From IMG/VR virus record IMGVR_UViG_3300045988_149737: DNA of 64,000 nt; one strand, given 5' to 3'. A program made the translations under genes and the position numbers. The DNA is from a virus. Its lineage: Duplodnaviria; Heunggongvirae; Uroviricota; Caudoviricetes. This document shows, one piece after another, positions 3,701 through 41,973 of the stretch; the first letter of the stretch is position 1; every line of letters begins with the position of its first letter. A model generated the notes under the pieces. The model was given only the letters and a program-made list of their open reading frames with translations. It was not told the origin of the DNA and ran no database searches.

Positions 3701-3763
3701 GTAAGCCTTGTTTAAACACATAAGATAACAACTTGTTTAAACACATCAAAAAAGGAAAAACAC

Positions 3764-11473: not shown

Positions 11474-11532
11474 AGCCTGCTTCTGTATATATAAATAACT
11501 ACATATTAATTATTAATATACGGAAGCAGGCT
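11474..11532. repeat. long inverted-repeat hairpin element, copy A
   Basis: agcctgcttctgtatata ... tatacggaagcaggct arms around an AT-rich loop; a second near-identical copy at 41167-41225. Confidence 0.6.
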
Positions 11533-11637
11533 GTTTTGTATCAGAGACTCCAGACCTGAACATCACTACAGAATCCACTAGAACCCCTTCCCAGACGCTT
11601 TAAAATCGATTTTATGAATCACTTTAAGGAAACTAAC

Positions 11638-13940: not shown

Positions 13941-13955
13941 AAAACAACTTGTTTT
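13941..13955. promoter_or_regulatory. operator-like palindrome AAAACAA-c-TTGTTTT (family 1 site)
   Basis: Perfect inverted repeat 24 nt upstream of the TerB-like gene start; same motif precedes about 12 genes. Confidence 0.5.
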
Positions 13956-14592: not shown

Positions 14593-14701
14593 TTGACCGA
14601 AATAGAGAGTTTGCACCTTTACGTTTAGCTTGCTCCCCTTTTATGCCACATCACAATAAAGCCAATAAGAAAACAACTTGTTTAAGCATTAGGAAAAACA
14701 C

Positions 14702-15271
14702 ATGTGCAAGAAATGCAAAGCGATAGCTGATGAACAAAACGCCTTATTCGAAGAAATGGATGCTAATGAACTGGTCAAAATGTTAGCCATTCTTCGAGGA
14801 ATAGAAGACGTTTCCATATTTGAGAGAGTGGTTACAGCACTTAATTTTGAGTCCACCTTTGAAGAGCCAACTCAGGTTGTAGCTTTAGCACATCATTTCG
14901 GTGTTCATTATCTTGCTGAAAAAGAGCGCGCTGATAAGTTGCAGGCGACTTTGGATATGGTGAGCGAGACTCAACGAACTGATGACACTAACAAGAGTGA
15001 GGCGATTATTGCCAGCAAAGATCGTGAAATTGCTGGGCTTAAATCCTCTCTAACGATGTTGATGTCTGCGTTCAATCTTATGTCTTCTCAGGCGGGTTAT
15101 AAAATGCCATCACTAAACAGCGATGATCCGATGGCCGTTCGTCAGCTTTTGGGAGCAATGGCCGACCAACTCGACGACACAAAGAGTCGGCTTGAAGACA
15201 TGATGCGTGAGTTAAGCCATCGACATAACCTCGCAACACAGCCACACAAAGCCTTTCAAAGCTCTAATTGA
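14702..15271 (+). CDS. hypothetical protein
   Basis: 189 aa; preceded by family-1 operator and RBS aggaaaaa. Confidence 0.5.
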   Translation: MCKKCKAIADEQNALFEEMDANELVKMLAILRGIEDVSIFERVVTALNFESTFEEPTQVVALAHHFGVHYLAEKERADKLQATLDMVSETQRTDDTNKSEAIIASKDREIAGLKSSLTMLMSAFNLMSSQAGYKMPSLNSDDPMAVRQLLGAMADQLDDTKSRLEDMMRELSHRHNLATQPHKAFQSSN

Positions 15272-19160: not shown

Positions 19161-19279
19161 ACGCTACAAATCCTTCTGCGTGAATAAATAAAGGCCATAA
19201 GTTGTGGCCTTAAATAAATTGTTTTCTGCCTTTTCTTATTTGTGAAAATAACCACAACTAGAAAACAACGGAGTTAAGA

Positions 19280-23181: not shown

Positions 23182-23571
23182 ATGGGCTTCCCTTCTCCTG
23201 CGGCGGATTATGCTGAGAGCCGTATTTCTCTTGATCAGCAGATAATTAGACATCCTTCAGCGACCTACTTCATGAGGGCAGCTGATAGTCATCATCGTGA
23301 GGGAATATTACAGGGTGCATTGCTGGTGGTCGATTCCTCACTTACCCCGGTTGATGGTTCTCTGCTTGTATGCGCTCTGGATGGGGAATATCGCGTAAAA
23401 AGATACCGGAAGTATCCACGTCAGCATCTGGAGGATTTAAGAACCGGTAAGAAGGAAGCATTGCCAAAGGATGACGATGGATGCACGGGCAGCAATGCCG
23501 TGTTTGGTGTGATCACTCACATTATCAACGACGCAAGAAGTGGCGAGTTTGATGATTGTCCCGTGATGTAG
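23182..23571 (+). CDS. UmuD'-like peptidase S24 protein (HumD-like, lacks N-terminal arm)
   Basis: 129 aa; begins MGFPSPAADY, i.e. at the position of the UmuD Cys-Gly self-cleavage site; Ser (AADSH) and Lys (VKR) at the catalytic dyad positions; SOS box upstream; no umuC-like gene follows. Confidence 0.75.
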   Translation: MGFPSPAADYAESRISLDQQIIRHPSATYFMRAADSHHREGILQGALLVVDSSLTPVDGSLLVCALDGEYRVKRYRKYPRQHLEDLRTGKKEALPKDDDGCTGSNAVFGVITHIINDARSGEFDDCPVM

Positions 23572-24709: not shown

Positions 24710-24866
24710 CCCGTCTCCTTTATTTTAATTTGCGCAATTGTCGCCTTGTAGTGTACTCCAGCTACGACATTTAATCATTTATGAGAAATGCTGTTATCAC
24801 ATGGCAGACATAAGGCCATTTTGTTACTATCAAGCCCCTTTTCACTACAAAGAAGTAATGCCTACT

Positions 24867-26900
24867 ATGACCCAAGTCGCGAAGAAAATTCTGGTGACGT
24901 GCGCGCTGCCGTACGCTAACGGCTCAATCCACCTCGGCCATATGCTGGAGCACATCCAGGCTGATGTCTGGGTTCGTTACCAGCGAATGCGCGGCCACGA
25001 GGTTAATTTCATCTGTGCCGACGATGCCCACGGTACGCCGATCATGCTGAAAGCACAGCAGCTTGGTATCACACCGGAGCAGATGATTGGCGAAATGAGT
25101 CAGGAACACCAGACTGATTTCGCAGGCTTTAACATCAGCTATGACAACTATCACTCGACGCACAGCGAAGAGAACCGTCAGTTGTCTGAGCTTATCTATA
25201 CTCGCCTGAAAGAGAACGGTTTTATTAAAAACCGCACTATCTCTCAGTTGTACGACCCGGAAAAAGGCATGTTCCTGCCGGATCGTTTTGTAAAAGGCAC
25301 CTGCCCGAAATGTAAAGCGCCAGATCAATACGGCGATAACTGTGAAGTCTGCGGCGCAACATATAGCCCGACTGAATTGATCGAGCCGAAATCGGTGGTT
25401 TCTGGCGCTACCCCGGTAATGCGTGATTCCGAACACTTCTTCTTTGATCTGCCTTCTTTCAGCGAAATGCTGCAGGCATGGACCCGCAGCGGCGCGTTGC
25501 AGGAGCAGGTGGCGAACAAAATGCAGGAATGGTTTGAATCCGGCCTGCAACAGTGGGATATCTCCCGCGATGCGCCTTACTTCGGTTTTGAAATTCCGAA
25601 CGCGCCGGGCAAATATTTCTACGTCTGGCTGGACGCGCCGATTGGCTACATGGGTTCCTTCAAGAATCTGTGCGACAAGCGCGGCGATACCACCAGCTTC
25701 GATGAATACTGGAAGAAAGACTCCACCGCCGAGCTGTACCACTTCATCGGTAAAGATATTGTTTACTTCCACAGCCTGTTCTGGCCTGCCATGCTGGAAG
25801 GCAGCAACTTCCGCAAGCCGACCAACCTGTTTGTTCATGGCTATGTGACGGTGAACGGCGCGAAGATGTCCAAGTCTCGCGGCACGTTCATTAAAGCCAG
25901 CACCTGGCTGAATCATTTTGACGCTGATAGCTTGCGCTACTACTACACCGCGAAACTCTCTTCGCGCATCGATGATATCGACCTGAACCTGGAAGATTTC
26001 GTTCAGCGCGTGAATGCCGATATCGTCAACAAAGTGGTTAACCTGGCCTCCCGTAATGCAGGCTTTATCAACAAGCGTTTTGACGGCGTGCTGGCAAGCG
26101 AACTGGCTGACCCTGAACTGTACAAAACCTTTACCGATGCCGCTGAAGTGATTGGCGAAGCATGGGAAAGCCGCGAATTTGGTAAAGCTATCCGTGAAAT
26201 CATGGCATTGGCTGACCTGGCTAACCGCTATGTCGATGAACAGGCTCCGTGGGTGGTGGCGAAGCAGGAAGGTCGCGATGCCGATCTGCAAGCGATTTGC
26301 TCTATGGGCATTAACCTGTTCCGCGTGCTGATGACGTACCTGAAACCGGTACTGCCGAAACTGACTGAACGTGCGGAAGCGTTCCTGAATACGGAACTGA
26401 CCTGGGATGGTATCCAGCAACCGCTGCTGGCACATAAAGTGAATCCGTTCAAAGCACTGTATAACCGCATCGACATGAAGCAGGTTGAAGCACTGGTGGA
26501 AGCATCCAAAGAAGAAGTGAAAGCCACCGCCGCGCCAGTTACTGGCCCGCTGGCTGATGATCCGATTCAGGAAACCATCACCTTTGACGACTTCGCCAAA
26601 GTTGACCTGCGTGTGGCACTGATTGAAAACGCGGAGTTTGTTGAAGGCTCTGACAAACTGCTGCGTCTGACACTGGATCTCGGTGGTGAAAAGCGTAATG
26701 TCTTCTCCGGCATCCGTTCTGCTTATCCAGACCCACAGGCACTGATTGGTCGTCACACCATTATGGTGGCTAACCTGGCTCCGCGTAAAATGCGCTTCGG
26801 TATCTCCGAAGGCATGGTGATGGCTGCTGGCCCTGGCGGAAAAGACATCTTCCTGTTAAGCCCGGATGCCGGTGCTAAACCAGGCCACCAAGTTAAGTAA
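24867..26900 (+). CDS. metG: methionyl-tRNA synthetase
   Basis: 677 aa from ATG at 24867 ([30 protein letters not shown]); matches E. coli MetG as I recall it; ORF track start at 24738 is an upstream in-frame extension. Confidence 0.95.
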
Positions 26901-26919
26901 CTAAACAATCATTCTTCAC

Positions 26920-26948
26920 AATGCCCGGCAACACGCTGGGCATTTTCA
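26920..26948 (+). terminator. terminator after metG
   Basis: aatgccc-ggcaacacgct-gggcatt followed by ttcat. Confidence 0.45.
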
Positions 26949-27034
26949 TATAGACACAATCCCTCCTGATTTACACAATCCCTAAAACAATTTGTTTTCT
27001 ACCTTTTGTTGATTGAGATAATAAGCCACATAAG

Positions 27035-27048
27035 AAAACAAATTGTTT
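27035..27048. promoter_or_regulatory. operator-like palindrome AAACAA-at-TGTTT (family 1) in a promoter region
   Basis: Lies after TTTTCT(-35)-17 bp-ATAATA(-10); a second copy aaaacaatttgtttt at 26985-26999 overlaps the -35. Confidence 0.45.
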
Positions 27049-27053
27049 AGGAG

Positions 27054-27302
27054 ATGAAGATGTTTGGAACAGCAAAAGAAATCATCGAGAAACTGAAAAA
27101 CTATCCAGAAGACGAACCCTTACTCATGGTTATGTGGCACAAAGAAGATATTGCTGAAGTAAGGACAGATCTCACTGATGAACAATGCGTACAGGTGATG
27201 CAAAAAATCAGACAATGCCATAACGCTGATGTCGGCGTTAATTGGGAGGTTATATCCACTACGGCGAATGAGTTGTTTCCAAACGGGGAGAGGGGATGTT
27301 AA
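27054..27302 (+). CDS. hypothetical small protein
   Basis: 82 aa; RBS aggag; alternative start 27060. Confidence 0.45.
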   Translation: MKMFGTAKEIIEKLKNYPEDEPLLMVMWHKEDIAEVRTDLTDEQCVQVMQKIRQCHNADVGVNWEVISTTANELFPNGERGC

Positions 27303-27595
27303 ATATTACTCAATCCTACCAGGTGGCATTGATCAGTTCATCTCATACATCAGAGGAAGATGCTCGCCGATTCATGATCGCAAGCAATGAGCTGGATTGG
27401 GTTTCACAAATTGAGTACGGTTGCATAGTTCACGCCGGGTTACAGGACGATGACTGGAAAGATAACTTGCGTCGATATGGTATATCCGAGGGCGCGATTT
27501 CGAACATTCAGAAGGTACTTGATGTAGGCTTTGACTCTGTACATTTTGATTGTGGCGCACCGGTCGTTGAAGGGCTTGAGTGCTGGAACTGGTAA
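27296..27595 (+). CDS. hypothetical small protein
   Basis: 99 aa; overlaps upstream stop; RBS ggggagagggg. Confidence 0.45.
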   Translation: MLNITQSYQVALISSSHTSEEDARRFMIASNELDWVSQIEYGCIVHAGLQDDDWKDNLRRYGISEGAISNIQKVLDVGFDSVHFDCGAPVVEGLECWNW

Positions 27596-27699
27596 ATCTG
27601 AAAACATATTCAAACCGTTGATAATGGCGGTCACAATTTGATTCTTTTCTATAAGAATCCGTTGATCGCCACTACCCCCATTCCATACCCGCAATCACA

Positions 27700-28500
27700 T
27701 CCTTAAATTTCAATAAGTTATAGTTGTTTATACAATCAAGAAAACAACTGAATAACAGATCAACGAAACATCAACGCTTTCACCCGATTTGGTCTAAAAA
27801 ATTGACGTTTTCACACATCACTGCTTATACCCGTAATCCCACGCAGCAGATAGCGCCACAGCGTCCAAATTTCACCACAGACGACCCAACACACTACCAA
27901 CAAAAACACACGCTCAAAATCGCTCTCGTTGCGTTACACAACCATATAAACAACTTATTTTCAGGCATAACAAAACAACTAAATAACACATGTGCCATTA
28001 CCAAAAACAACCAACCTCTTTATGGCAGGCTACCGAAAAGACCCACCTCTTCTTCCCAGGCTACCGGACAACCAACCTAACTTTCACAGGCAATCCGAAA
28101 ACATTCATACGCGCGATACCCACGACACGCCATTCCCCAAACAGCGAAGAAACACCAGAATCACTGAAACCCCAACGAAGCCTGTAACCGCAAGGATTCT
28201 CTCAATCCCAAAAGACACGAAACAGAACAATCACGGGAAACGCCATTACCCAATACACGAATAACTACAAAAGCCTTTCACACACTCCAGACAAACAACT
28301 CAAACACAATAACGAAAGGAATCGCCCACCTGCCATTACTCCATACACGGAGAAGAACAATCACCAAAACGACGAGAACACCCCATAGAAGAACCACTGC
28401 AAAACGAACGAAACCACATACACCGACAGAGAGAACAACACACCCAATTCACCAACAGAAATAGTCGCCGTATAGAACATTCTGGAAGGAGTGAGCATTA
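27700..28500. other. ~800-bp non-coding tract with extreme strand compositional skew (A+C-rich, G- and T-poor on plus strand)
   Basis: By eye G is only around 10% on the plus strand; the only ORF (27724-28080) is low-complexity. Confidence 0.6.
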
Positions 28501-28584
28501 ACGCCTATAGAGAGGTTGAAACAGATAAAACACGAAGAAAACACAACATGTATAGCGAAGAAGCCAGGTATGTATAAGTGGGGA

Positions 28585-28615
28585 GGGAAGGAGGGGTGTC
28601 GCCTCCTTTTTCGTA
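28585..28615 (+). terminator. terminator-like hairpin inside the non-coding region
   Basis: aggagg-ggtgtcg-cctcct followed by ttttcg. Confidence 0.4.
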
Positions 28616-28674
28616 TTTATTCAACTCCTGATTTTATCCCCCGTAACACCCCTACGGTCAGCCTTCGGTCCATA

Positions 28675-28815
28675 CAGGGAAAAGGCTGCATCCCGCTACA
28701 GAAACGGCTGGGTTGCCTTCGGGGAACGGCTGGAGGTTTTCAGGGAAACGGTCGAGTTGCCTGTGTGGATTTCGGGAAAAGGCTCGATGCCGGTTCAGGA
28801 ACGGCGGCGTACCGG
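28675..28815. repeat. six tandem ~22-bp iteron-like repeats (core GGGAAA[A/C]GGC)
   Basis: cagggaaaaggctg / cagaaacggctgg / ggggaacggctgg / agggaaacggtcg / gggaaaaggctcg / aggaacggcggcg in head-to-tail order. Confidence 0.65.
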
Positions 28816-29188
28816 TATAGCGTGAGGGAGAGTTGCGGCTACCCACCTGTAATGTGCGGGAAGAAGAGAGGCGCTAACGTGCAGGCGAACTTACTTACCG
28901 CTGGATTCCCTCTGAATGCCCAACTACAGCGTAATTGTGCCAGACAGCCAACGGGTCACAATCGATTTCAGTAGGTTTTCGGGGAGAGGATTATTCTGCC
29001 CACCAGCCACTTTCGGCCACCAAATCAGAATAATGTAAAAAGTGTACTCGGTACTGAACCTGAAAACTCACTGCCAAAACAACATTCACCGGAATAAAAT
29101 CCTTTTTCGCCTTTGCGTTATTGCGATAATAACGCCAACAAGAAAACAACATATTTAGACGTTGTAGAAACGAAGTGAGGATGAAGAG

Positions 29189-29407
29189 ATGATTAAGATG
29201 CCTGTGACGGTTGAGGTGTGGGGCGTGGATTCCCTGGCTGAGTGTCTGGATGCAGTGGGGCCGGAGTTGTACCGCAAGTTGTGGTCGTTCGTCCCGGCAG
29301 AAGGGGAATCGCCCAAAGGGAAGGATATCTGGCACCTGCTGAGTGAAGATGAAAAGCGGGAGCTGGTGGGCGCGGTACACAGCGAGTTCCCGGACGACGA
29401 AGATTAA
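29189..29407 (+). CDS. hypothetical small acidic protein
   Basis: 72 aa; family-1 operator and RBS upstream; hairpin terminator downstream. Confidence 0.45.
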   Translation: MIKMPVTVEVWGVDSLAECLDAVGPELYRKLWSFVPAEGESPKGKDIWHLLSEDEKRELVGAVHSEFPDDED

Positions 29408-29546
29408 GAGTGAGGCCACCAGCACGGTGGCTTTTGTCGCTATTAACCTCCGGGGCAGCGCAGCACCGTAACGATATACTTTGTGGCCGTTTTCTTACTG
29501 GTATTGTTTACGCAATTCAGAAAACATGTTGTTTAAGGATTGCTTT

Positions 29547-29876
29547 ATGTTTGCAAATATCGACATCAACCAAATCAAGAAATTAACTCAAAAAGAGTTT
29601 GATCAGTTTTATGAGTTAGAAGGTTGGTCTTCCACTCTGATCAATTCGCGGTGGGTGCTTGAGCTGATGACTCGTGATGACGCACCTGCTTTGATGATTT
29701 GCGACATGGGTGAAGATGCTGACTTTATGGATATGAGCGAATTTTGTGTGGACACATACAACCGCAGCCAGAAGTACTACTTCACATGCGATAGCGAAAA
29801 TGACGTGATTTCTAAGGTCTATCTTCACCTCGTCCAGCATTGGGACGTTCAGGAGTTTCTTGAGGTATTCGCGTAA
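29547..29876 (+). CDS. hypothetical small protein
   Basis: 109 aa from ATG at 29547 (RBS aagga); promoter and operator upstream; hairpin aagccagc-att-gctggctt downstream. Confidence 0.45.
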   Translation: MFANIDINQIKKLTQKEFDQFYELEGWSSTLINSRWVLELMTRDDAPALMICDMGEDADFMDMSEFCVDTYNRSQKYYFTCDSENDVISKVYLHLVQHWDVQEFLEVFA

Positions 29877-30030
29877 TCCCAACCAAAGCCAGCATTGCTG
29901 GCTTAACTTAATCTGTAGCCGCAGGGAAGAACCTGCATATCGCTCATGCGCCTGATCAATATGCTTTGTAGCCGTTTTCTTACTGGTATTATTTACGCCA
30001 TTGAGAAAACAAGTTGTTTACGGAGTTGTG

Positions 30031-30342
30031 ATGAAAAGTTCATTGGTTCTTGGTCTGGACAAAGACCAGAAGAGAAAAGAGAAGCCTGCACTGGTTGCTC
30101 AACTAACTTTGCTGGACATCGTTGCCAATGGAACATCTATTCGTCTGTTCCGTGAAACAGCGGTGTCTTTCGATAAAAACACCTTTACTCGTTATGTAAT
30201 GAATGTTCGCCGCCAGCGTGGAAAAGGCTGGATGGCGTTTCAAAGAATGTGGCCGGAACATCAGCTCGAACTGGCCTTGATGGAAGTTAACCGCGTGGCC
30301 CAGCAAGAGATTCAGAGAGCATCAGTGATGGCAATAGCCTGA
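30031..30342 (+). CDS. hypothetical small protein
   Basis: 103 aa from ATG at 30031; ORF track start 30001 is a TTG inside the operator. Confidence 0.45.
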   Translation: MKSSLVLGLDKDQKRKEKPALVAQLTLLDIVANGTSIRLFRETAVSFDKNTFTRYVMNVRRQRGKGWMAFQRMWPEHQLELALMEVNRVAQQEIQRASVMAIA

Positions 30343-30377
30343 TAATGTGCAAGTGGTAATTAGTCGACAGTACGACA

Positions 30378-30408
30378 GCCCCGCCATCCTTACGGGGCTT
30401 TTTTGTTT
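30378..30408 (+). terminator. rho-independent terminator
   Basis: agccccg-ccatcctta-cggggct followed by tttttgtttt. Confidence 0.6.
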
Positions 30409-30468
30409 TGTAAGTACATACTTACGATCATAGAATATAAAAATAACCAATACACTACGGAGAGTGAA

Positions 30469-30864
30469 ATGACCGTTAAACGCGAAAAACTGACAGTTGA
30501 TGTTTACTATGCCTCTGAAACCGCCGAAGGTAAGAATGTGGCAAAAATCACCGTTGTTACGTACAACACCGAAACTGGTGCCGAAGTACAGGCCAGTACG
30601 ATCGTGCGTAAAGGTGATGCCTCCGGCGGCGAGTACGCGACTCAATACCAGTCCATTCTCGATGCAACTGACCCGCTGCTGCTGAAAATCGAGAACTACT
30701 TCCGCCAGGTTGATGAAGAGGTGTTTGAAACCATGATGAATATGGTTAATTCCGTATTCGCCTCCAGCCTGAACACCAGCACCACCTGGATTGGCCAGTA
30801 CGGTCTGCGTATTACCTCCGGCATTCCTGCTGATACCTTAATCCCTGAAAGCGTATTCGCTTAA
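30469..30864 (+). CDS. hypothetical protein
   Basis: 131 aa from ATG at 30469 (RBS acggagag); family-2 palindrome gtaagta-ca-tacttac at 30410-30425 upstream. Confidence 0.45.
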   Translation: MTVKREKLTVDVYYASETAEGKNVAKITVVTYNTETGAEVQASTIVRKGDASGGEYATQYQSILDATDPLLLKIENYFRQVDEEVFETMMNMVNSVFASSLNTSTTWIGQYGLRITSGIPADTLIPESVFA

Positions 30865-30981
30865 TCCTCTTTAAATGGCGCGTAAACCGCGCCATTTTCT
30901 TATGCCCGATAATAATTTGTTTTCTGCCTTATCTGATTTGTGAAAATGATTTCACTGAAGCAACTTAATAAGGAAACCATC

Positions 30982-31356
30982 ATGGGACTTGATATCTACA
31001 TCGAGACGCAGCCAAAAAACGATCTGAATAATGAGGCATCCAGAAAGCGGGTTGCTCACTTCCGTAAGTTCAATGCGCTCGTTGGGTGGATGGAGCGCAA
31101 CGTAGGTGAAGTCGAAAATTGTGAGCTTTTAGAATTAACGATGAATGACATTTGTTTTCTGAAGGCTCATTTGATGCACATAAACGAAAGCAATTGCGAA
31201 GAGTACTTGCCTACTCGGGAAGGTTTTTTCTTCGGCAGTCAGGAGTACGATGAAGGTTACTGGCATGATGTGGGGGAGTTGAAAGAGCTTGTGGAAGATC
31301 TGATTAAGAACCACGACTTTCACAATAACAGACTGACCTTCTGCGCCTGGTGGTAA
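30982..31356 (+). CDS. hypothetical protein
   Basis: 124 aa from ATG at 30982 (RBS aaggaaa). Confidence 0.45.
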   Translation: MGLDIYIETQPKNDLNNEASRKRVAHFRKFNALVGWMERNVGEVENCELLELTMNDICFLKAHLMHINESNCEEYLPTREGFFFGSQEYDEGYWHDVGELKELVEDLIKNHDFHNNRLTFCAWW

Positions 31357-31357
31357 A

Positions 31358-31501
31358 TATGGGCGATTTCAAGAAACGCCTGAAGGAAAGAGCCGAGATG
31401 GCCAGAAAGCAAAACGCCTCTTCTGTCATCAGATACGCAAGGCAGTTTAGTCGCAACAACAAATCAGTTGAGGAAAAGATCCTTAGCGTAATCGAGCGAT
31501 A
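31358..31501 (+). CDS. hypothetical small basic protein (47 aa)
   Basis: ATG 1 nt after upstream stop; below ORF-track cut-off; followed by a terminator. Confidence 0.3.
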
Positions 31502-31507
31502 ATTATT

Positions 31508-31531
31508 AAGACCACCAGCATTGGTGGTCTT
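31508..31531 (+). terminator. hairpin terminator (shared sequence family)
   Basis: aagaccacca-gca-ttggtggtctt; near-identical hairpins at 29414-29437 and 31979-32002. Confidence 0.5.
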
Positions 31532-31691
31532 AAATGACTTTTAATAACCGAAGGTTAATTTTAAACCTGGCTATCAACTTCCAGAACCTTTCTTGTGTAT
31601 TCAGCCTGAATTAACTTCTTTTCTGCCTTATCTACACTGCGATAATTACACCAACAAGAAAACAACATGTTTACGCAGTGAGGATATGCAC

Positions 31692-31973
31692 ATGACTGAT
31701 TTCACCATTACCCCAAAAGCACAAAATGTATTCCTTGAATCATGGCTGGACTTGCCGGAAACAGAACAGCAAGAAATGGATCATGTGGAATATGACGAGC
31801 AGGTAAGCACGCGATTCTTCCACTTTGAGGGCTGCGTTTACGATATTGCCGACTTCATGAGAGATGACCGCTTCCCTGGATGGCACGCAAGCTATCCACT
31901 TAACGCCTTCGCCATGCTGATGATCCGTGTGGGTGATTCAGGGGATACCATCGACATCGGTCTGCTCCACTAA
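31692..31973 (+). CDS. hypothetical small acidic protein
   Basis: 93 aa from ATG at 31692 (RBS tgaggat 7 nt upstream). Confidence 0.45.
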   Translation: MTDFTITPKAQNVFLESWLDLPETEQQEMDHVEYDEQVSTRFFHFEGCVYDIADFMRDDRFPGWHASYPLNAFAMLMIRVGDSGDTIDIGLLH

Positions 31974-31978
31974 AGACT

Positions 31979-32002
31979 AAGGCCACCAGCATTGGTGGCC
32001 TT
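31979..32002 (+). terminator. hairpin terminator (shared sequence family)
   Basis: aaggccacca-gca-ttggtggcctt. Confidence 0.5.
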
Positions 32003-32177
32003 AAATGACCATCTTGTTTCCCGCAGGCTAAAAACACCAACCTCTTACCTCCAGGCAACCGACAAACCCACCTGTTCCCGTCCGGCTACCGCAACTTTCC
32101 ACTTTGACGCCTTATTCGTACAACGATAATTAACACCAACAAGAAAACAATTTGTTATTTACGATAAGGAATTAATC

Positions 32178-32660
32178 ATGAATTTTATCGCTACTGTAAA
32201 CGCACCCGCACATGGCAATATCGCTGTAACGTTCTCTGACATTGAAAAACGAGTACTTGGTGCATGGCGCGACAATGAGACGGTAGAACTGTCAGAACAA
32301 GAAAAATGCATTATTGCACGCGACATCATTGGCAATCGTCGTTACTCGCGGGTATTTGAGAAAGCATATGTGGTAAATTCTGGATTCGGAACGTTCGTCT
32401 TCCCGGTACGCTCCGGGCGATTCTGCCAGTCCAAGCTGATTGAGTTCGCTACGCAGATTTCTGTCTGGATTAAAACTCAATCGTCGTTCAAATTTTCCGA
32501 CGATGAAGCAGTATCGCAGGGGATGCGGATCGCCAACAATGCGATTAAATGCAAAAATATTACGTATACCGCTGGCGTTGACACATGGAAACTGTTTTGC
32601 GCTAACTTTATGCTGAATGTATACGCAAGCAACCGCATCCACATCCTTGATGGCGTGTAA
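32178..32660 (+). CDS. hypothetical protein
   Basis: 160 aa; TTTGAC-17 bp-ATAATT promoter and operator aaaacaatttgtt upstream; RBS aagga. Confidence 0.5.
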   Translation: MNFIATVNAPAHGNIAVTFSDIEKRVLGAWRDNETVELSEQEKCIIARDIIGNRRYSRVFEKAYVVNSGFGTFVFPVRSGRFCQSKLIEFATQISVWIKTQSSFKFSDDEAVSQGMRIANNAIKCKNITYTAGVDTWKLFCANFMLNVYASNRIHILDGV

Positions 32661-32709
32661 CTGAGAAGAGGGCCAGAAACGGCCCTTTCTCTATAGCCAC
32701 CAGCTGCCG

Positions 32710-32800
32710 CAGGGAAATTTTCAGAAACGGCGAGGAACGCATTCATGAGCCGACGGGGAACGGCCAGGATTTTTTCGGGAAACGGCTGCATTCGCCTTTA
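32710..32800. repeat. second array of GGGAAACGGC-type repeats
   Basis: cagggaaatttt / cagaaacggcg / ggggaacggcc / gggaaacggctg; same core as 28675-28815. Confidence 0.55.
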
Positions 32801-33274
32801 TATAGAAAAAACATCGGGAAGCTGGTGGAATCCAACCAGCGGTTGTCGGACAGGTGAGCGGGGAAAATTATGATGACTTTCGTCGCCTGAGACATCCAGA
32901 TTTCTTTCGTAGCGTAATCACATATGTGATTAAGTGGTGTGATTATGTGAAAAATCACGCGCACATAATACGCGAGCGGATACGGAACAAAACAAAATGC
33001 CGATCCGCGCCGACAATTAAACGCGGATCATAAAGCAAGAATAAAAGCCAATGATTAACCATACACCATAGCGCAATATAACGCGTTTTAAGCGCGTTAA
33101 TGTGTTGAGTAATGGGTATGTACTGGTAAGGATATAAAAGCGCGTCTGTGGCGTTATTTTGGCGCTTATTTTATGTTGTTGGAGTGAGTCAAAGACAATA
33201 AAAAAGCGCCATCATTGGCGCGTTATGGTGGAAGTATTAGAAACGAAAAAAGCGCCCATAGTGGGCGCTAGATT

Positions 33275-33505
33275 TTATTTATGTAAACTGATTTCAAATC
33301 CCATTTCTACAAACGCTTTTAACATTAAAAATATATCAGCGTCATTCACGTCTGCTTTTTTTCGCTCCTGGTCGCTCAATAAGTCAATTTTGCGCGTCGT
33401 TTCATCGATAAACTCGACTGCGCGCCCAGCGTAACCAGCGATCCCAGCGATGCGATTAACAAAATATTCATTGCGCACGTTAACGCCAGAGATAAGAATA
33501 AACAT
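33275..33505 (-). CDS. hypothetical small protein
   Basis: 76 aa; flanked on both sides by minus-strand hairpin terminators (gcgccca-tag-tgggcgc at ~33250 and ~33525). Confidence 0.45.
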   Translation of the reverse strand: MFILISGVNVRNEYFVNRIAGIAGYAGRAVEFIDETTRKIDLLSDQERKKADVNDADIFLMLKAFVEMGFEISLHK

Positions 33506-33552
33506 GATTAAGCTCCTTAAAAGCGCCCATAGTGGGCGCCAGATTCCATTAA

Positions 33553-34203
33553 TTACGCTTTGAAAGCATCAGCCAGATAGTTATAGAAATCATTTTTAAT
33601 AAAGCGATATTGCTGCGTACCAGCTTTTGCGCTTCCCATTCCTTTGACTTTCTCAACAAGTCCAAGACGTTCGCAAAGATTGATAAGCTGGTTGGCTTGA
33701 GTGTATCCTGCGTCTAATTTTATTTCGTTGGCTTTTTTCGCTTCATTCATTAAATCGAAAACAGCGCCATTTGTGAACGTCTCGATCTCGTCGTTAATCA
33801 TATCGATTAATGCGAATACACGAGATCCGGACATATCAGCGACGGAATAAACACACTTTCCAGCTTTAATGGATTTAACCAGATAAACCAGTTTTTCCAG
33901 AGAGTAACTATTAGCCATTGCATCACGGAAAAATACTTCTGGCGCTTGTTTGCTTGCTTTGATCGCATAGTAGAAAACAGAGCACAATTTTTCGTCTTCT
34001 ACAGCGTTTACAACGTTGTTGATGAAGTAAGCAAGTTTAGTGGTCGCAGCTTGCATATTTGCTTTATCTGCTTTGGTGTGCGTACCATTTTTATAATGTT
34101 CGTTATATGTTTGAGTTGCCAGATCTGCTTTTTCGCGCAGTTCATCGGATACAATGGAAGCAGCTTCAACGATGGATTTTTTAGAAATGATAATGTTAGC
34201 CAT
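33553..34203 (-). CDS. hypothetical protein
   Basis: 216 aa; RBS aaggaaa 7 nt upstream on minus strand; lower GC than surrounding phage genes. Confidence 0.55.
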   Translation of the reverse strand: MANIIISKKSIVEAASIVSDELREKADLATQTYNEHYKNGTHTKADKANMQAATTKLAYFINNVVNAVEDEKLCSVFYYAIKASKQAPEVFFRDAMANSYSLEKLVYLVKSIKAGKCVYSVADMSGSRVFALIDMINDEIETFTNGAVFDLMNEAKKANEIKLDAGYTQANQLINLCERLGLVEKVKGMGSAKAGTQQYRFIKNDFYNYLADAFKA

Positions 34204-34798: not shown

Positions 34799-35323
34799 TC
34801 AAAAAGGCAAAATTCGTTCAACCCAATCGAACAAAACAACTATTTTTCTACCGTTCTCGACACGTAGTGTAACCTGACAAGCATCTGCGCCTGCTGACAC
34901 CCCCTCAATTTCACGGCCATCCGCCATGTACACCCTTATAGATTTGTTTGCTTTGTAGGCTTGGTTGCAAATTGCAAAAAAATCGCGGCGTGATGGCCGA
35001 TTATCGACATAATCAGGGTGAACTGTTAGTCGACCTTTGAAATCGTGAGCGATACTGTCAACCACACCTGATTCAATTGTACTAATGCGTTCAAGTGGGA
35101 GCCTTATACGATTTTCTTTGTCAAAAGGGGCTGGGCAAAGGTCAACTTTGTTACGAGATGGCATGAGGCCATAAACGTACATGCAAAACGCCTGGCCATC
35201 TTCGAGAGTGACCCTTACAGGAATTTGTTCTCTGCGCCAGAACATCAGTAGTTTTTCAACGTTAGTGTAATCTCGCGGCCAGAGTTCAGCTTGGATACCG
35301 TAGGTAATATCTTTGGTTGTCAT
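34799..35323 (-). CDS. hypothetical protein
   Basis: 175 aa from ATG at 35323, 4 nt after the lipoprotein stop; ORF-track version to 35401 overlaps the lipoprotein gene. Confidence 0.5.
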   Translation of the reverse strand: MTTKDITYGIQAELWPRDYTNVEKLLMFWRREQIPVRVTLEDGQAFCMYVYGLMPSRNKVDLCPAPFDKENRIRLPLERISTIESGVVDSIAHDFKGRLTVHPDYVDNRPSRRDFFAICNQAYKANKSIRVYMADGREIEGVSAGADACQVTLRVENGRKIVVLFDWVERILPF

Positions 35324-35818: not shown

Positions 35819-36097
35819 TTATTTTAATCTGCTTAATAGCGTTTCGAGATCTTCCTTTGTCATATTAGAGTTCTCATAGATACGCATGATTTTCTCACGA
35901 GTCTTAGCGGAAGCCCCGACAGAAGATATAACCTTGTCAAAGTCGGCCATTGTCAATTGTTCCAGAATGGTATTTATGACTTCAGCCTTAGACATTTTGA
36001 TATTTTTTTCTTTTAGTTTCACTTGAAACTTTCCAAGTTTGTCATTGGCCTTATCAGACAATGCTACCTGACAGTAAGTTGTTTTCTTTTCACTCAT
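35819..36097 (-). CDS. hypothetical small protein
   Basis: 92 aa, directly downstream of the helicase gene. Confidence 0.5.
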   Translation of the reverse strand: MSEKKTTYCQVALSDKANDKLGKFQVKLKEKNIKMSKAEVINTILEQLTMADFDKVISSVGASAKTREKIMRIYENSNMTKEDLETLLSRLK

Positions 36098-37722: not shown

Positions 37723-37741
37723 AGTGGATTGTAGCAATAAA

Positions 37742-38422
37742 ATGGATGTAAAAATCACGATTTTGCAGGTTGATGTTGCCAACCTTCGCCCGAATACCTG
37801 GAACACCAATTCGGTTGGTGCGCAGAATTTTGAAAAACTGAAAGGTTCTATCGAAAAATTGGGCTTTTTTAAGCCAATTTTGGCTCGTGAACTTGAAGAT
37901 GGATTTTTTGAAATCCTCGGCGGCGAACATCGCTGGCGTGCCGCTATTGAGCAAGGAATTTCAACGGTTCCGGTGCTTTCTGTGGGCAAAATTAGCGATG
38001 TCGTAGCTAAACAGATGTCACTGGTGGACAACGAGCGATACGGTGAAGACGACCAAATCGCATTGCAACGCTTCATTGAAGAAATTCAGTCAGAACTTGA
38101 CTATCAACTGTCTGAAATCGCCCCGTATGACGACGAAATCTCGATGGTTTTAGCAAAAGAGGCTGCAATCGACCTTGAAGCACTGGAGGCGTTGTCTCGT
38201 GGTAGTGATGAGCCTGTCGATACCGACAAACGAGAGAAAACCGAACGTGTGGGTGCGGAACATCAGACCATGCGCTTCAAAGTAACTTTCGATGCGTCAG
38301 ATCGTGTTGCAGAAACCATAAAAAACATCATCAAAGAGCAGGCTATTAACACCGGTAATGAAATGGAGAACGCTGGTGAGGCTCTGGTGTGGCTGGTCGA
38401 CTACTACAAGGAGCGTATGTAA
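37742..38422 (+). CDS. ParB/Srx-like N-terminal domain protein 1
   Basis: FEILGGEHRWRAAIEQGISTVPV matches the ParB N-domain arginine-rich motif; ATG at 37742 (ORF track GTG at 37724). Confidence 0.7.
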   Translation: MDVKITILQVDVANLRPNTWNTNSVGAQNFEKLKGSIEKLGFFKPILARELEDGFFEILGGEHRWRAAIEQGISTVPVLSVGKISDVVAKQMSLVDNERYGEDDQIALQRFIEEIQSELDYQLSEIAPYDDEISMVLAKEAAIDLEALEALSRGSDEPVDTDKREKTERVGAEHQTMRFKVTFDASDRVAETIKNIIKEQAINTGNEMENAGEALVWLVDYYKERM

Positions 38423-39090
38423 TGACCAAAAAGTTTGAAATCGTATATCGCGACCCGGCAGATCTTATTCCCTATGAGATGAATGCCAAAAAGCATGATG
38501 AACAGCAGATCAGAGATCTGGCCGCAGCCATTAAAAAGCGCGGATTTGACCAGCCAATTACGGTCGATAAGAACGACGTAATTATTACTGGCCACGGCCG
38601 CCGTGAGGCTGCAATTTTTGCTGGACTTGAGCGTGTACCGGTTATTGTTCGTGATGATCTGAGTGATGACGAGGTACGTGCAAAGCGCCTTGAAGATAAC
38701 CGACTTGCCAGCATTGATTACGATGCAATTAAGCTACAGAAAGAGCTTGAGTCGCTTGTTCTGGACGATATCGAGGTTTTCGGCTTTGAAGAGCGTGAGT
38801 TGAATGTTCTTGTTGGCAGTATGACAGAAGAAATGGACACCGACTCGCTAGTTATCGATCTTGGCGAAGAAACTAAACGACAGAAGGATGAACACACCGA
38901 GATCAGTCGCGAAGTTGCAGCGGAAGAAGTACGTGTTGTCGACGTATTGGGCTTTAAAACGCTTCCTGCTGGCTCTGCCATTGTTGTTGGTGATTTGCTT
39001 GCCCACATGGAAGAAATGACGGGAGAAAGCGGGGTAGACGCATTTGTGGCATATGCGGAGAAGATCTCTTCCGGGGAGATGGCTGCATGA
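38422..39090 (+). CDS. ParB/Srx-like N-terminal domain protein 2
   Basis: IITGHGRREAAIFAGLERVPVIV; taATG overlap with upstream gene, RBS aaggag. Confidence 0.7.
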   Translation: MTKKFEIVYRDPADLIPYEMNAKKHDEQQIRDLAAAIKKRGFDQPITVDKNDVIITGHGRREAAIFAGLERVPVIVRDDLSDDEVRAKRLEDNRLASIDYDAIKLQKELESLVLDDIEVFGFEERELNVLVGSMTEEMDTDSLVIDLGEETKRQKDEHTEISREVAAEEVRVVDVLGFKTLPAGSAIVVGDLLAHMEEMTGESGVDAFVAYAEKISSGEMAA

Positions 39091-40877: not shown

Positions 40878-41144
40878 ATGACGTTAACCGATAAACAAAA
40901 GGACATCATCAAAACGCTCAATCTAGGTTATGAGCGAGGTCATCTACTTGATCTGGACGAATTGCTTGAAGTTTTGCCGTACAAGACAACAAAGCAAAGT
41001 ATCCAGTTCTCAATTCGCGCTCTGATAAAAAAGGGGCTGGTGGAGAAAGGGCATACGCGCCAACGCATTGACAATCGCTATCACCGCCGAACTCTTGGGT
41101 TAACCACTTTAGGTCGAGCCAAAGCGAAGTTACTGGTGATGTAA
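40878..41144 (+). CDS. hypothetical small protein, possible winged-helix DNA-binding
   Basis: 88 aa; RBS aagga. Confidence 0.4.
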   Translation: MTLTDKQKDIIKTLNLGYERGHLLDLDELLEVLPYKTTKQSIQFSIRALIKKGLVEKGHTRQRIDNRYHRRTLGLTTLGRAKAKLLVM

Positions 41145-41166: not shown

Positions 41167-41225
41167 GACCTGCTTCTGTATATATAAATAATAAGTAACT
41201 TATTAAATATATACGGAAGCAGGCT
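41167..41225. repeat. long inverted-repeat hairpin element, copy B
   Basis: cctgcttctgtatata ... tatatacggaagcagg; near-identical arms to copy A at 11474-11532. Confidence 0.6.
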
Positions 41226-41340
41226 TAATAAGACATGCCCAGACCTAATTAAACACCCCAGAAAACAAGTTGGTTAGCAGATGCAGTAAACAAGTTGTTT
41301 TAGAGCGCATGGACGCGCTCTGTGTGTTTTAGAGGGATCT

Positions 41341-41973
41341 ATGACGGTCGAAAAAGACGAGGTAAAAACTCGCCTGACACCAGCGGAGTGGGCCGAAGCT
41401 GAAGCCAAATGGACGTCAGGCGAATATACACTCTCAAAGCTGGAGGAAGAGTACGGCATTCGTCGTGAAACACTCTCCAGACATTTCAAAAAGCGAGGAT
41501 TAGAGAAAGGCGCGGACTCTGTTGGGAAGATGGTTCGTGAGTCTCTTAAATCTGACGCAGAGCTTCGCGCTAAAGCCCGTGCGGAAAAGATAGAAGAACG
41601 TCGTACACGTTATGACGGCTGGGCGTATGCGTTGGGGCAGATGGTGATGGTCGAAGTCACTACGGCCAAACGTGAGGGTAAGCCTTTAGGGGCGATTGAG
41701 GATTCTCTCAAGAGCTTACAGAGAGCAAGTAATACCCTTGCAAAATGCTTTGAAGTTTCGTCCAAAGCATTGGGCATGGATCATGCGGAAAATGACGAGG
41801 AAGAAATTCCGAACCTGGTATTTGGTGAGCTTACGCCTTCCCAGGTGGCGAAATTACGTCAGGAAGACGACGAGCCTGAAATCATCGATGACGAATTGCT
41901 TGAGACGTTGGAAGAAGAAGCTCTAAGCGAATTTGATGCGACAGATGATGGAAGTGAAGGGGAGGACGAATAA
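41341..41973 (+). CDS. putative terminase small subunit
   Basis: 210 aa immediately upstream of terL; N-terminal helix-turn-helix-like segment; acidic C-terminus; two family-1 operators and a hairpin upstream. Confidence 0.55.
   Translation: MTVEKDEVKTRLTPAEWAEAEAKWTSGEYTLSKLEEEYGIRRETLSRHFKKRGLEKGADSVGKMVRESLKSDAELRAKARAEKIEERRTRYDGWAYALGQMVMVEVTTAKREGKPLGAIEDSLKSLQRASNTLAKCFEVSSKALGMDHAENDEEEIPNLVFGELTPSQVAKLRQEDDEPEIIDDELLETLEEEALSEFDATDDGSEGEDE

What the first reader, a model, noticed from the sequence alone, without database searches (positions are those of the whole stretch)
13941..13955. Operator-like palindrome AAAACAA-N-TTGTTTT recurring at about a dozen gene starts (family 1)
Perfect or near-perfect copies lie between the -10 element and the RBS at 3724-3742, 13941-13955, 14669-14684, 26985-26999, 27035-27048, 29141-29156, 29519-29535, 30006-30020, 31659-31672, 32145-32157, 41271-41285 and 41298-41311, with a split version at 27738-27766. 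The placement at the transcript 5' end fits a common repressor/activator operator or a shared 5'-UTR RNA hairpin controlling a regulon that includes nrdB, the TerB-like gene, the HD hydrolase, the ORFan cassettes and terS.
Basis: seen in the sequence. Interest (0 to 1): 0.65.

Follow-up and report, generated by a model that had tools for sequence, protein, structure and literature searches.

The report
Shared operator palindrome of SSU5-like phage-plasmids
A 15-17 bp near-palindrome (AG-AAAACAA-N-TTGTTTA) sits at a fixed place in about 15 promoters of this SSU5-like phage-plasmid and is conserved in its relatives, so it is almost certainly the binding site of one phage-encoded regulator that switches a whole set of genes together; which protein reads it is still open.

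Summary
AAAACAANTTGTTTT (≤2 mismatches) occurs 15 times against 0.66 expected. The window is an SSU5-like phage-plasmid, about 97% identical to Escherichia phage Cyrano. About 21 copies per genome occur in Cyrano, SSU5 and two Klebsiella relatives, often as the only conserved block in diverged intergenic DNA. The motif is absent from a Providencia relative.

There are two placements. "Class A" (AG-AAAACAA-N-TTGTTTA) starts 12-13 bp after an extended −10 (TGnGATAAT), roughly +7 to +21. "Class B" is the reverse complement, ends 18 bp before the −10, and lies 51 bp upstream of class A.

Deviations in the two arms are never compensatory, and the RNA hairpin is negligible (−0.6 to −1.7 kcal/mol).

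Best reading (about 0.5): a DNA operator for a dimeric phage repressor that brackets σ70 promoters, working like the dispersed operators of P1 or RK2.

Main rival (about 0.3): the class A sites are read as mRNA leaders by the phage's FljA homologue. That protein models as a tandem Hfq fold and tracks the motif across genomes.

I found no published description. I rate it a new member of a known kind, of moderate interest.

The parts
3725..3739 (+). Class A site ATAACAACTTGTTTA, preceded by AG, 24 nt before the nrdB ATG (3764)
   Evidence: Conserved in SSU5 and pJN2-26 but lost in the group-D Klebsiella plasmid.
13941..13955 (+). Class A site AAAACAACTTGTTTT (perfect palindrome), 23 nt before the TerB/TciA-like ATG (13979)
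   Evidence: It is the only invariant block of the intergenic region across window, pJN2-26 and the group-D Klebsiella plasmid.
14670..14684 (+). Class A site AAAACAACTTGTTTA, 12 nt after CACAAT (14652-14657) and 17 nt before the ATG at 14702
19211..19225 (-). Class B site (reverse orientation; + strand reads TAAATAAATTGTTTT-CT), 1 nt after a hairpin. It ends 18 nt before TGtGAAAAT (-10 at 19244-19249), upstream of the HD-hydrolase gene (ATG 19280).
19260..19268 (+). Half-site AGAAAACAA in the class A position of the same promoter, 51 bp from the class B site
26984..26998 (-). Class B site AAAACAATTTGTTTT-CT. It overlaps the -35 position of the promoter whose -10 is GATAAT at 27017-27022.
27035..27049 (+). 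Class A site AAAACAAATTGTTTA, 12 nt after GATAAT and directly abutting the SD GGAG; ATG at 27054. It lies 51 bp from the 26984 site.
27739..27747 (+).
27947..27961 (-). Site TAAACAACTTATTTT in reverse orientation but in a leader-like position, 28 nt before the ATG at 27990. Orthologous sites exist in SSU5 (90739) and pJN2-26 (25868).
29143..29157 (+). Class A site AAAACAACATATTTA (weaker right arm), 12 nt after TGcGATAAT (29125-29130); ATG at 29189
29521..29535 (+). Class A site AAAACATGTTGTTTA, 13 nt after TGgTATTGT (29502-29507); ATG at 29547
30006..30020 (+). Class A site AAAACAAGTTGTTTA, 13 nt after TGgTATTAT (29987-29992); ATG at 30031
30909..30923 (-). Class B site ATAATAATTTGTTTT-CT after a canonical terminator. 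It ends 18 nt before TGtGAAAAT (30942-30947); the likely true start is the ATG at 30982, with SD AAGGAA.
31659..31673 (+). Class A site AAAACAACATGTTTA, 12 nt after TGcGATAAT (31641-31646); ATG at 31692
32144..32158 (+). Class A site AAAACAATTTGTTAT, 13 nt after GATAAT (32125-32130); ATG at 32178
34833..34847 (.). Weak match AAAACAACTATTTTT-CT inside the 3' end of the FljA-like gene; doubtful member
   Evidence: score 13
41262..41276 (+). First terS-leader site AAAACAAGTTGGTTA, preceded by AG
   Evidence: conserved upstream of terS in all FljA-bearing IMG/VR relatives
41287..41301 (-). Second terS-leader site TAAACAAGTTGTTTT, 25 bp from the first and inverted relative to it. It is followed by a hairpin plus T-run (41302-41330) and the terS ATG at 41341.
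34799..35320 (-). FljA-family gene (tandem Hfq/Sm fold). This is the candidate trans-factor under the RNA-level reading.
35819..36097 (-).
   Evidence: predicted DNA-facing strand residues differ (Y/Q/A, H/Q/Q, S/Q/K, S/H/K) among genomes with the same motif
40878..41144 (+).
   Evidence: weak LexA_DNA_bind hit; the helix TTKQSMQFSIRALIKKG is unchanged in Providencia-type relatives that have no motif.

Best explanation
The motif is the operator of one phage-encoded regulator, read as double-stranded DNA by a symmetric (dimeric) protein. It is built into a family of sigma-70 promoters that rely on an extended -10 (TGnGATAAT or TGnTATTAT) and have no good -35.

In every such promoter one copy starts 12-13 bp after the -10, about +7 to +21. 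In the fullest modules a second, inverted copy covers about -45 to -31, 51 bp (about five helical turns) upstream. A protein bound there would exclude RNA polymerase or block promoter escape. About 15 promoters in this window and about 21 in the whole genome would then be held off together and released together. They include nrdB, TerB-like, HD hydrolase, the ORFan cassettes, the terS late operon and, outside the window, parA, the replicative helicase and cobT.

Shown: the enrichment, the fixed geometry, the conservation across relatives, and the lack of RNA-type covariation.

Inferred: the transcription start sites, binding by a dimer, repression rather than another effect, and the identity of the protein. 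The best DNA-binding candidate is a 71-aa MarR-type winged-helix protein (CYRAN_37 family). It is encoded outside this window, inside the motif-controlled helicase operon.
For: 1. Enrichment of about 20- to 50-fold over shuffles.

2. Fixed spacing to the -10, with a variable distance (4-64 nt) to the start codon.

3. Class B copies are the exact reverse complement of class A. They always end 18 bp before the -10 and lie 51 bp from the class A copy, in four different genomes. These positions are upstream of the inferred start site.

4. Across 83 distinct sites, all departures from dyad symmetry are one-sided (C·A 10, A·A 13, T·T 11, A·G 9) and none is compensatory. The RNA hairpin is only -0.6 to -1.7 kcal/mol with z near 0. 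Rfam finds nothing.

5. The motif is a phylogenetic footprint. It is the only invariant block upstream of the TerB-like gene across three lineages. It is unchanged in a Klebsiella plasmid whose proteins are only 36-70% identical.

6. In published LF82 lysogen RNA-seq (PMC9928086, table S1), genes directly behind the motif sit at background (5-25 against a median of 9.8).

Against: 1. No binding protein is demonstrated. The winged-helix candidate is essentially unexpressed in LB lysogens (about 0-3 FPKM) although the regulon is silent there.

2. The parA operon carries a good site yet is expressed in lysogens (50-89).

3. The site is consistently asymmetric (AG-AAAACAA ... TTGTTTA-AGG), with the AG side always facing the promoter core. 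A simple homodimer does not explain this.

4. The promoters were assigned by eye from TGnGATAAT. The tool's canonical -35/-10 scan does not pick them up.

5. No 5'-end data were available.

6. The FljA-family protein tracks the motif at least as well as any DNA-binding candidate.
Confidence: 0.5

Rival explanations
1. RNA-level operator. The class A copies lie about 6 nt from the predicted 5' end of the mRNAs and often abut the Shine-Dalgarno sequence. On this reading they are bound as single-stranded RNA by the phage's FljA homologue, a tandem Hfq/Sm-fold protein. That protein would block translation and perhaps destabilise the message, as Salmonella FljA does on the fliC leader.

For: 2. Salmonella FljA binds fliC mRNA upstream of the start codon. 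This rests on my own knowledge of Bonifield & Hughes 2003, Yamamoto & Kutsukake 2006 and Aldridge 2006, which are not held in the library. PMC2652032 restates it.

3. The gene is present in every motif-bearing genome or locus with enough flank. That includes plasmids of Klebsiella, which I take from my own knowledge to be non-flagellate, so host fliC cannot be the target there. It is absent from the motif-less Providencia plasmid and from loci L085-L090.

4. It is transcribed in lysogens: 18 in LB, and about 110-270 FPKM in the other conditions.

5. The Salmonella fliC leader AAUAACAUCAAGUUGUAAUUGAUAAGGA shares CAAGUUGU with the motif. That stretch falls in a 10-nt segment missing from the fljB leader (primer sequences).

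6. The parA mRNA is present in lysogens despite carrying a site. That fits post-transcriptional control.
Against: 1. Class B copies sit upstream of the -35 position or just after terminators, at a fixed distance from the -10. An RNA target has no reason to be there.

2. Spacing is fixed to the -10, not to the SD or ATG (4-64 nt).

3. Regulon mRNAs are at the floor in lysogens. That is more than the roughly 5-fold mRNA effect I recall for FljA on fliC.

4. The similarity to the fliC leader is 10 of 17 positions. The true FljA footprint could not be checked.

5. About 30 other genes share the same presence/absence pattern.
Confidence: 0.3
2. The motif is an intrinsic part of a duplicated promoter and leader cassette, such as an initial-transcribed sequence, a translation-enhancing A/U-rich leader, or a weak -35 substitute. 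Its recurrence would reflect cassette duplication rather than a dedicated trans-acting factor.
For: The full modules share a long conserved core (TTGTTTTCTgCCTTtTCT..TGnGAtAAT..CCAACAAG) and look paralogous. The TTG of class B could serve as a poor -35 with a 19-nt spacer. A/U-rich leaders can enhance translation (my own knowledge).
Against: The motif also occurs at promoters with unrelated flanks (nrdB, TerB-like, terS, parA, helicase, cobT). It stays invariant while the flanks diverge. Dyad symmetry and tandem inverted copies in the terS leader are not expected of a plain leader.
Confidence: 0.08
3. Binding site of a host protein shared by Enterobacteriaceae, for example an IHF-like architectural protein; AAACAAnTTGTTT matches 7 of the 9 specified positions of WATCAANNNNTTR.
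For: There is a partial match to the IHF consensus (by inspection; consensus from my own knowledge). The motif occurs in elements of Escherichia, Salmonella, Klebsiella and Yersinia but not in the Providencia element.
Against: Information content is high across all 15-17 positions, unlike degenerate IHF sites. An exact-17-mer scan of IMG/VR returns mostly SSU5-like contigs, and the other hits are mostly single matches in mostly AT-rich contigs. Providencia also has IHF (my own knowledge). The host genome was not scanned.
Confidence: 0.07
4. A self-acting 5'-UTR RNA hairpin (stability or translation element) that needs no protein.
For: The motif is a palindrome lying in the predicted leaders.
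Against: Predicted energies are -0.6 to -1.7 kcal/mol with z near 0. There are no compensatory changes in 83 sites. A 1-nt loop is impossible, and there is no Rfam match.
Confidence: 0.03

Closest known systems
Dispersed C1 operators (Op sites) of phage-plasmid P1
   Same: Both are phage-plasmids in which one short operator is scattered over many promoters across the genome. The promoters include replication and late-function genes, so one protein controls a dispersed regulon.
   Different: The P1 operator is an asymmetric 17-mer (ATTGCTCTAATAAATTT, my own knowledge) bound by C1. Here the site is a 7-1-7 palindrome with a different sequence, and no C1 homologue was seen. The placement (+7 to +21, and -45 to -31) is unusually uniform.
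KorA/KorB operator network of IncP-1 plasmid RK2
   Same: Both have short palindromes repeated at about a dozen promoters of one replicon, with some copies near -40 and others overlapping the core promoter. The partition operon is included in the regulon.
   Different: The sequences are unrelated (OB is TTTAGCSGCTAAA, my own knowledge). The ParB_N proteins here (37724-39090) are conserved in the motif-less Providencia relative. The ParG-like protein has the same beta-strand there. So the partition proteins are unlikely to be the readers.
FljA-fliC leader control in Salmonella flagellar phase variation
   Same: A full-length FljA-family protein is encoded here. In both cases the target lies between the promoter and the Shine-Dalgarno sequence. 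The two share the CAAGUUGU core and an A-rich/U-rich layout.
   Different: FljA has one known target and the phage element has about 21. The phage proteins are only about 38% identical to chromosomal FljA. Some phage sites lie in DNA that should not be transcribed. Binding has not been tested.
MarR-family winged-helix repressors and their promoter-overlapping palindromes
   Same: The operator is a 15-19 bp palindrome overlapping the -35 position or the +1 region. A MarR-fold protein is encoded by all motif-bearing genomes.
   Different: The candidate is only 71 aa and lacks the MarR dimerisation helices. It is restricted to SSU5-like elements and is barely expressed in lysogens.

Membership tests
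Dispersed repressor-operator network (works like P1 C1/Op or RK2 KorA/KorB) | Many copies of one short site, enriched over chance, located at promoters across the replicon | tested here: met
   15 matches against 0.66 expected. About 21 per genome in four genomes, all intergenic and promoter-linked.
Dispersed repressor-operator network (works like P1 C1/Op or RK2 KorA/KorB) | Site sequence matches the known operator (P1 Op or RK2 OA/OB) | tested here: not met
   By inspection against consensus sequences recalled from my own knowledge. So it is not a member of those specific systems.
Dispersed repressor-operator network (works like P1 C1/Op or RK2 KorA/KorB) | A cognate DNA-binding protein that binds the site and represses | not testable with these tools
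   Candidates were ranked only by comparative genomics.
FljA / fliC-leader translational control | FljA-family (PF03614) protein encoded | tested here: met
   E = 2.5e-84 over the full length. Tandem Hfq fold.
FljA / fliC-leader translational control | Target lies in the mRNA leader between promoter and SD | tested here: inconclusive
   Class A sites are predicted at +7 to +21, but no 5'-end data exist. Class B sites lie outside any predicted leader.
FljA / fliC-leader translational control | Target resembles the fliC leader element | tested here: inconclusive
   An 8-nt identical core (CAAGUUGU), 10 of 17 positions overall. The E. coli fliC leader has CAA-CGAC-UUG.
Structured cis-regulatory RNA (Rfam family or stable hairpin) | Stable fold, covariation, or a match to a curated model | tested here: not met
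   energies; no compensatory pairs; no Rfam hit.
MarR-type operator | Palindrome of 15-20 bp overlapping the core promoter, plus a MarR-fold protein in the same genome | tested here: met
MarR-type operator | That protein binds this site | not testable with these tools
   No test was possible.
IHF site | Match to WATCAANNNNTTR with a degenerate, AT-rich context | tested here: not met
   Only 7 of 9 positions match, and conservation extends far beyond the IHF core.

The most novel reading that the evidence does not exclude
The motif is the recognition element of a phage-encoded tandem-Hfq-fold protein (FljA family). That protein would run a genome-wide post-transcriptional regulon of about 20 phage mRNAs. 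The nucleotide-metabolism, replication, partition and terminase operons would then be gated at the leader RNA rather than by a classical DNA repressor. The single-target flagellar regulator FljA would be a domesticated offshoot of this phage system (or the reverse). The inverted copies next to terminators or upstream of promoters would then need a second role, such as binding read-through RNA or single-stranded DNA.
Probability: 0.3. Interest if true: 0.8.

Novelty: new member of a known kind. Interest (0 to 1): 0.5.

Why it matters
SSU5-like phage-plasmids, including pHCM2 of S. Typhi, much of pMT1 of Y. pestis and many Klebsiella and E. coli plasmids, are common in clinical Enterobacteriaceae. 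I found almost nothing published on their gene regulation.

This motif defines a regulon of about 20 promoters and gives exact sites for footprinting, reporter assays and ChIP or CLIP. It also gives a shortlist of three proteins.

It would also show a temperate phage controlling its lytic genes at the RNA level.

Tried and rejected
1. RNA hairpin: folding and pair counts reject it.

2. Known RNA family: Rfam finds none.

5. ParG-like CYRAN_29 (annotated RelE/ParE): its beta-strand KSRTMSL is kept in Providencia, and there is no repeat array at parA.

6. The Xre-like lysogeny repressor CYRAN_45: it is absent from SSU5, and its own promoter carries a different palindrome, GGTAAGTGCTTACC.

7. The S24 protein at 23182-23571: it has no DNA-binding domain and is absent from SSU5 and pJN2-26.

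8. CYRAN_81: no hit in the group-D Klebsiella plasmid in the tblastn listing of selected candidates (E ≤ 1e-4).

9. Independent contexts for testing co-occurrence: FljA-like genes outside SSU5-like elements are ordinary fljBA loci, and the CYRAN_37 family is confined to SSU5-like elements. Neither gave a test.

10. pMT1 keeps the motif without CYRAN_37 or parA, but I judge it too recent and too degraded an element to be informative.

11. A minus-strand promoter that would make class B sites the 5' end of a small decoy RNA: no acceptable -10 was found by inspection.

12. Literature: no paper holds the motif strings or links SSU5 to an operator. The primary FljA papers are not held.

Full report
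**What the window is.** Megablast of 26000-34000 finds Escherichia phage Cyrano (OV696614, the SSU5-like phage-plasmid of E. coli LF82) at 97% identity. It also finds other SSU5-like elements of Escherichia, Klebsiella and Salmonella. The window corresponds to roughly Cyrano 66 kb to the end, plus 1 to 22 kb. It is 42-52% G+C, not AT-rich.

- AAAACAANTTGTTTT with up to 2 mismatches gives 15 matches against 0.66 expected. No shuffle out of 100 reaches 15.
- A weight matrix gives 14 hits at score 16 or above against 0.25 expected. The 9-mer AGAAAACAA or its complement occurs 16 times against 1.2 expected.
The two terS sites are really 41262-41276 and 41287-41301.
- The 'split' site is a lone half-site.
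- The sites at 19211, 27947 and 30909 were missed.

**Anatomy.** I aligned 42 'class A' and 15 'class B' sites from the window, Cyrano, SSU5 and pJN2-26.
- The element is a 17-mer, AG-AAAACAA-N-TTGTTTA, often followed by AGG.
- Class A copies start 12-13 nt after a -10 hexamer that usually carries an upstream TG. Examples are TGaGATAAT at 27017, TGcGATAAT at 29125 and 31641, and TGgTATTGT at 29502.
- There is no good -35, so these are extended -10 sigma-70 promoters. The tool's canonical -35/-10 scan does not list them, so the promoter assignment is by inspection.
- A start about 7 nt after the -10 puts class A at about +7 to +21.
- The distance from class A to the ATG varies from 4 to 64 nt.
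- Class B copies are the exact reverse complement (TAAACAA-N-TTGTTTT-CT). They always end 18 nt before the -10, at about -45 to -31. Where both copies are present, they lie 51 bp apart. Examples are 26984/27035 and 19211/19262, with the same spacing in SSU5, pJN2-26 and a Klebsiella plasmid.
- The terS leader has two copies 25 bp apart in opposite orientation, followed by a hairpin plus T-run.

**Conservation.**
- Whole-genome scans find about 21 sites in each of Cyrano, SSU5 and pJN2-26.
- They also find about 21 sites in a Klebsiella plasmid (NZ_CP145150) whose proteins are only 36-70% identical.
- Outside the window, the motif precedes parA, the replicative helicase, cobT and CYRAN_58.
- Upstream of the TerB-like gene, the motif is the only invariant block in otherwise diverged DNA. 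At nrdB it is kept in three lineages and lost in one.
- A 103-kb Providencia relative has no enrichment, and IMG/VR loci L085-L090 have no site scoring 16 or above.
- An exact-17-mer scan of IMG/VR returns mostly SSU5-like contigs (75-80 of 120). Most of the rest are single matches, mostly in AT-rich contigs.
- pMT1 of Y. pestis keeps the sites at the backbone promoters it retains.

**DNA or RNA?** The hairpin idea fails.
- Energies are -0.6 to -1.7 kcal/mol with z near 0.
- In 83 distinct sites, every departure from symmetry is one-sided (C·A, A·A, T·T, A·G). None is compensated.
- Rfam has no match.

So the sequence itself is what is read. The following points favour reading as duplex DNA by a symmetric protein:
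- the dyad symmetry;
- the fixed spacing to the -10 rather than to the SD;
- the inverted copies at -45 to -31, which should not be in the transcript.

Two operators bracketing the core promoter is a repressor arrangement. Published LF82 RNA-seq (PMC9928086, table S1) shows the genes behind the motif at background in lysogens. The parA operon is the exception.

**Who reads it?** I compared candidates across four motif-bearing genomes and the motif-less Providencia plasmid.

Disfavoured:
- p88 (40878-41144): same recognition helix in Providencia.
- p92 (35819-36097): RHH-like, with variable DNA-facing residues.
- The ParG-like CYRAN_29: same beta-strand in Providencia.
- The Xre-like CYRAN_45: absent from SSU5, and its own promoter has a different palindrome.
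- The S24 protein: no DNA-binding domain.

Two candidates survive.

- It is encoded outside the window, in the motif-controlled helicase operon.
- It is present in all four motif-bearing genomes and absent from Providencia.
- It is almost unexpressed in LB lysogens.

(b) The FljA homologue at 34799-35320(-).
- Pfam E = 2.5e-84.
- It is present in every motif-bearing element, including those of Klebsiella, which I take from my own knowledge to be non-flagellate.
- It is absent from Providencia.
- It is transcribed in lysogens.
- The Salmonella fliC leader shares CAAGUUGU with the motif, in a segment missing from the fljB leader.

**Verdict.** The cis-element is solid, and I found no published description of it.
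- Most likely (about 0.5) it is a DNA operator for a dimeric repressor that brackets extended -10 promoters. It works like the dispersed operator networks of P1 or RK2 but is not a sequence member of either.
- The main rival (about 0.3) is that class A copies act as leader-RNA targets of the tandem-Hfq-fold FljA homologue. That reading explains the co-occurrence and the expressed parA mRNA, but not the class B copies.

**Unexplained.** The AG side of the element always faces the promoter core, in both classes.

I rate this a new member of a known kind. Interest is moderate, and it would be high if the RNA-level reading proves right.

Noticed in passing
window 1286, 5994, 13047, 18015, 30411, 37708, 43229, 44734, 50229, 56730: A second palindrome family (TAAGTA-NN-TACTTA / GGTAAGTGCTTACC) recurs in intergenic DNA, including inside the late operon. 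About 16 copies occur in Cyrano. The best copy lies in the promoter of the Xre-like lysogeny repressor CYRAN_45, which is outside this window. This is probably that repressor's own dispersed operator set.
   Followed up: partly
window 41169-41223 and 11474-11533: A large GC-armed palindrome, CCTGCTTC(T/C)GTATAT...ATATACGGAAGCAGG, occurs twice. Each copy is followed by CCAGACCT. It is conserved upstream of terS in relatives, with a recognisable counterpart (GGGAGCAAGG) in the Providencia group. It could be a late-promoter or activator site, or a strong terminator.
   Followed up: partly
window 41302-41330: The terS leader contains a hairpin plus T-run (AGAGCGCATGGACGCGCTCTGTGTGTTTT) between the two motif copies and the SD. 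It resembles an attenuator or terminator that might require antitermination for late expression.
   Followed up: no
window 34799-35320 (-): The FljA family (PF03614) models as a tandem Hfq/Sm fold. The gene is 78% identical between this window and Cyrano although the backbone is 97-100% identical. It ranges from 33% to 100% identity among close relatives, so it sits in a fast-swapping region.
   Followed up: yes
window 19211-19277, 26984-27051, 30909-30975, 31608-31675: The full promoter modules are units of about 68 bp whose two ends are 17-bp inverted repeats of the motif. In both copies the AG side faces the core. No explanation tried so far accounts for this consistent asymmetry.
   Followed up: partly
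window 30946 versus 30982: The start annotated for the Cyrano orthologue (CYRAN_108) falls inside the predicted -10 (GAAAATG) and has no SD. The ATG at 30982, with AAGGAA upstream, is the more likely start.
   Followed up: partly
Cyrano 29975-30334 (outside the window): CYRAN_29, annotated 'RelE/ParE putative toxin', has an RHH motif (KSRTMSLEDEYFELL...RSDVIRAAI) and follows a small ParA. It looks like a ParG-type centromere-binding protein, not a toxin.
   Followed up: partly
window 23182-23571 and 24738-26900: An S24 peptidase without a DNA-binding domain (UmuD-like) is highly expressed in lysogens. A full-length methionyl-tRNA synthetase gene lies nearby. Both are absent from SSU5 and pJN2-26.
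   Followed up: no
L168 6699, 7054, 9159 and L102 (IMG/VR, about 34% G+C, not SSU5-like): An unrelated AT-rich phage contig carries three motif-like sites. Two of them sit just after terminator-like hairpins in the form ...tttcAG-AAAACAAnTT(G/A)TTTA. This may be chance or a second lineage using the same site. No FljA-like or CYRAN_37-like ORF occurs in the fragments held.
   Followed up: partly
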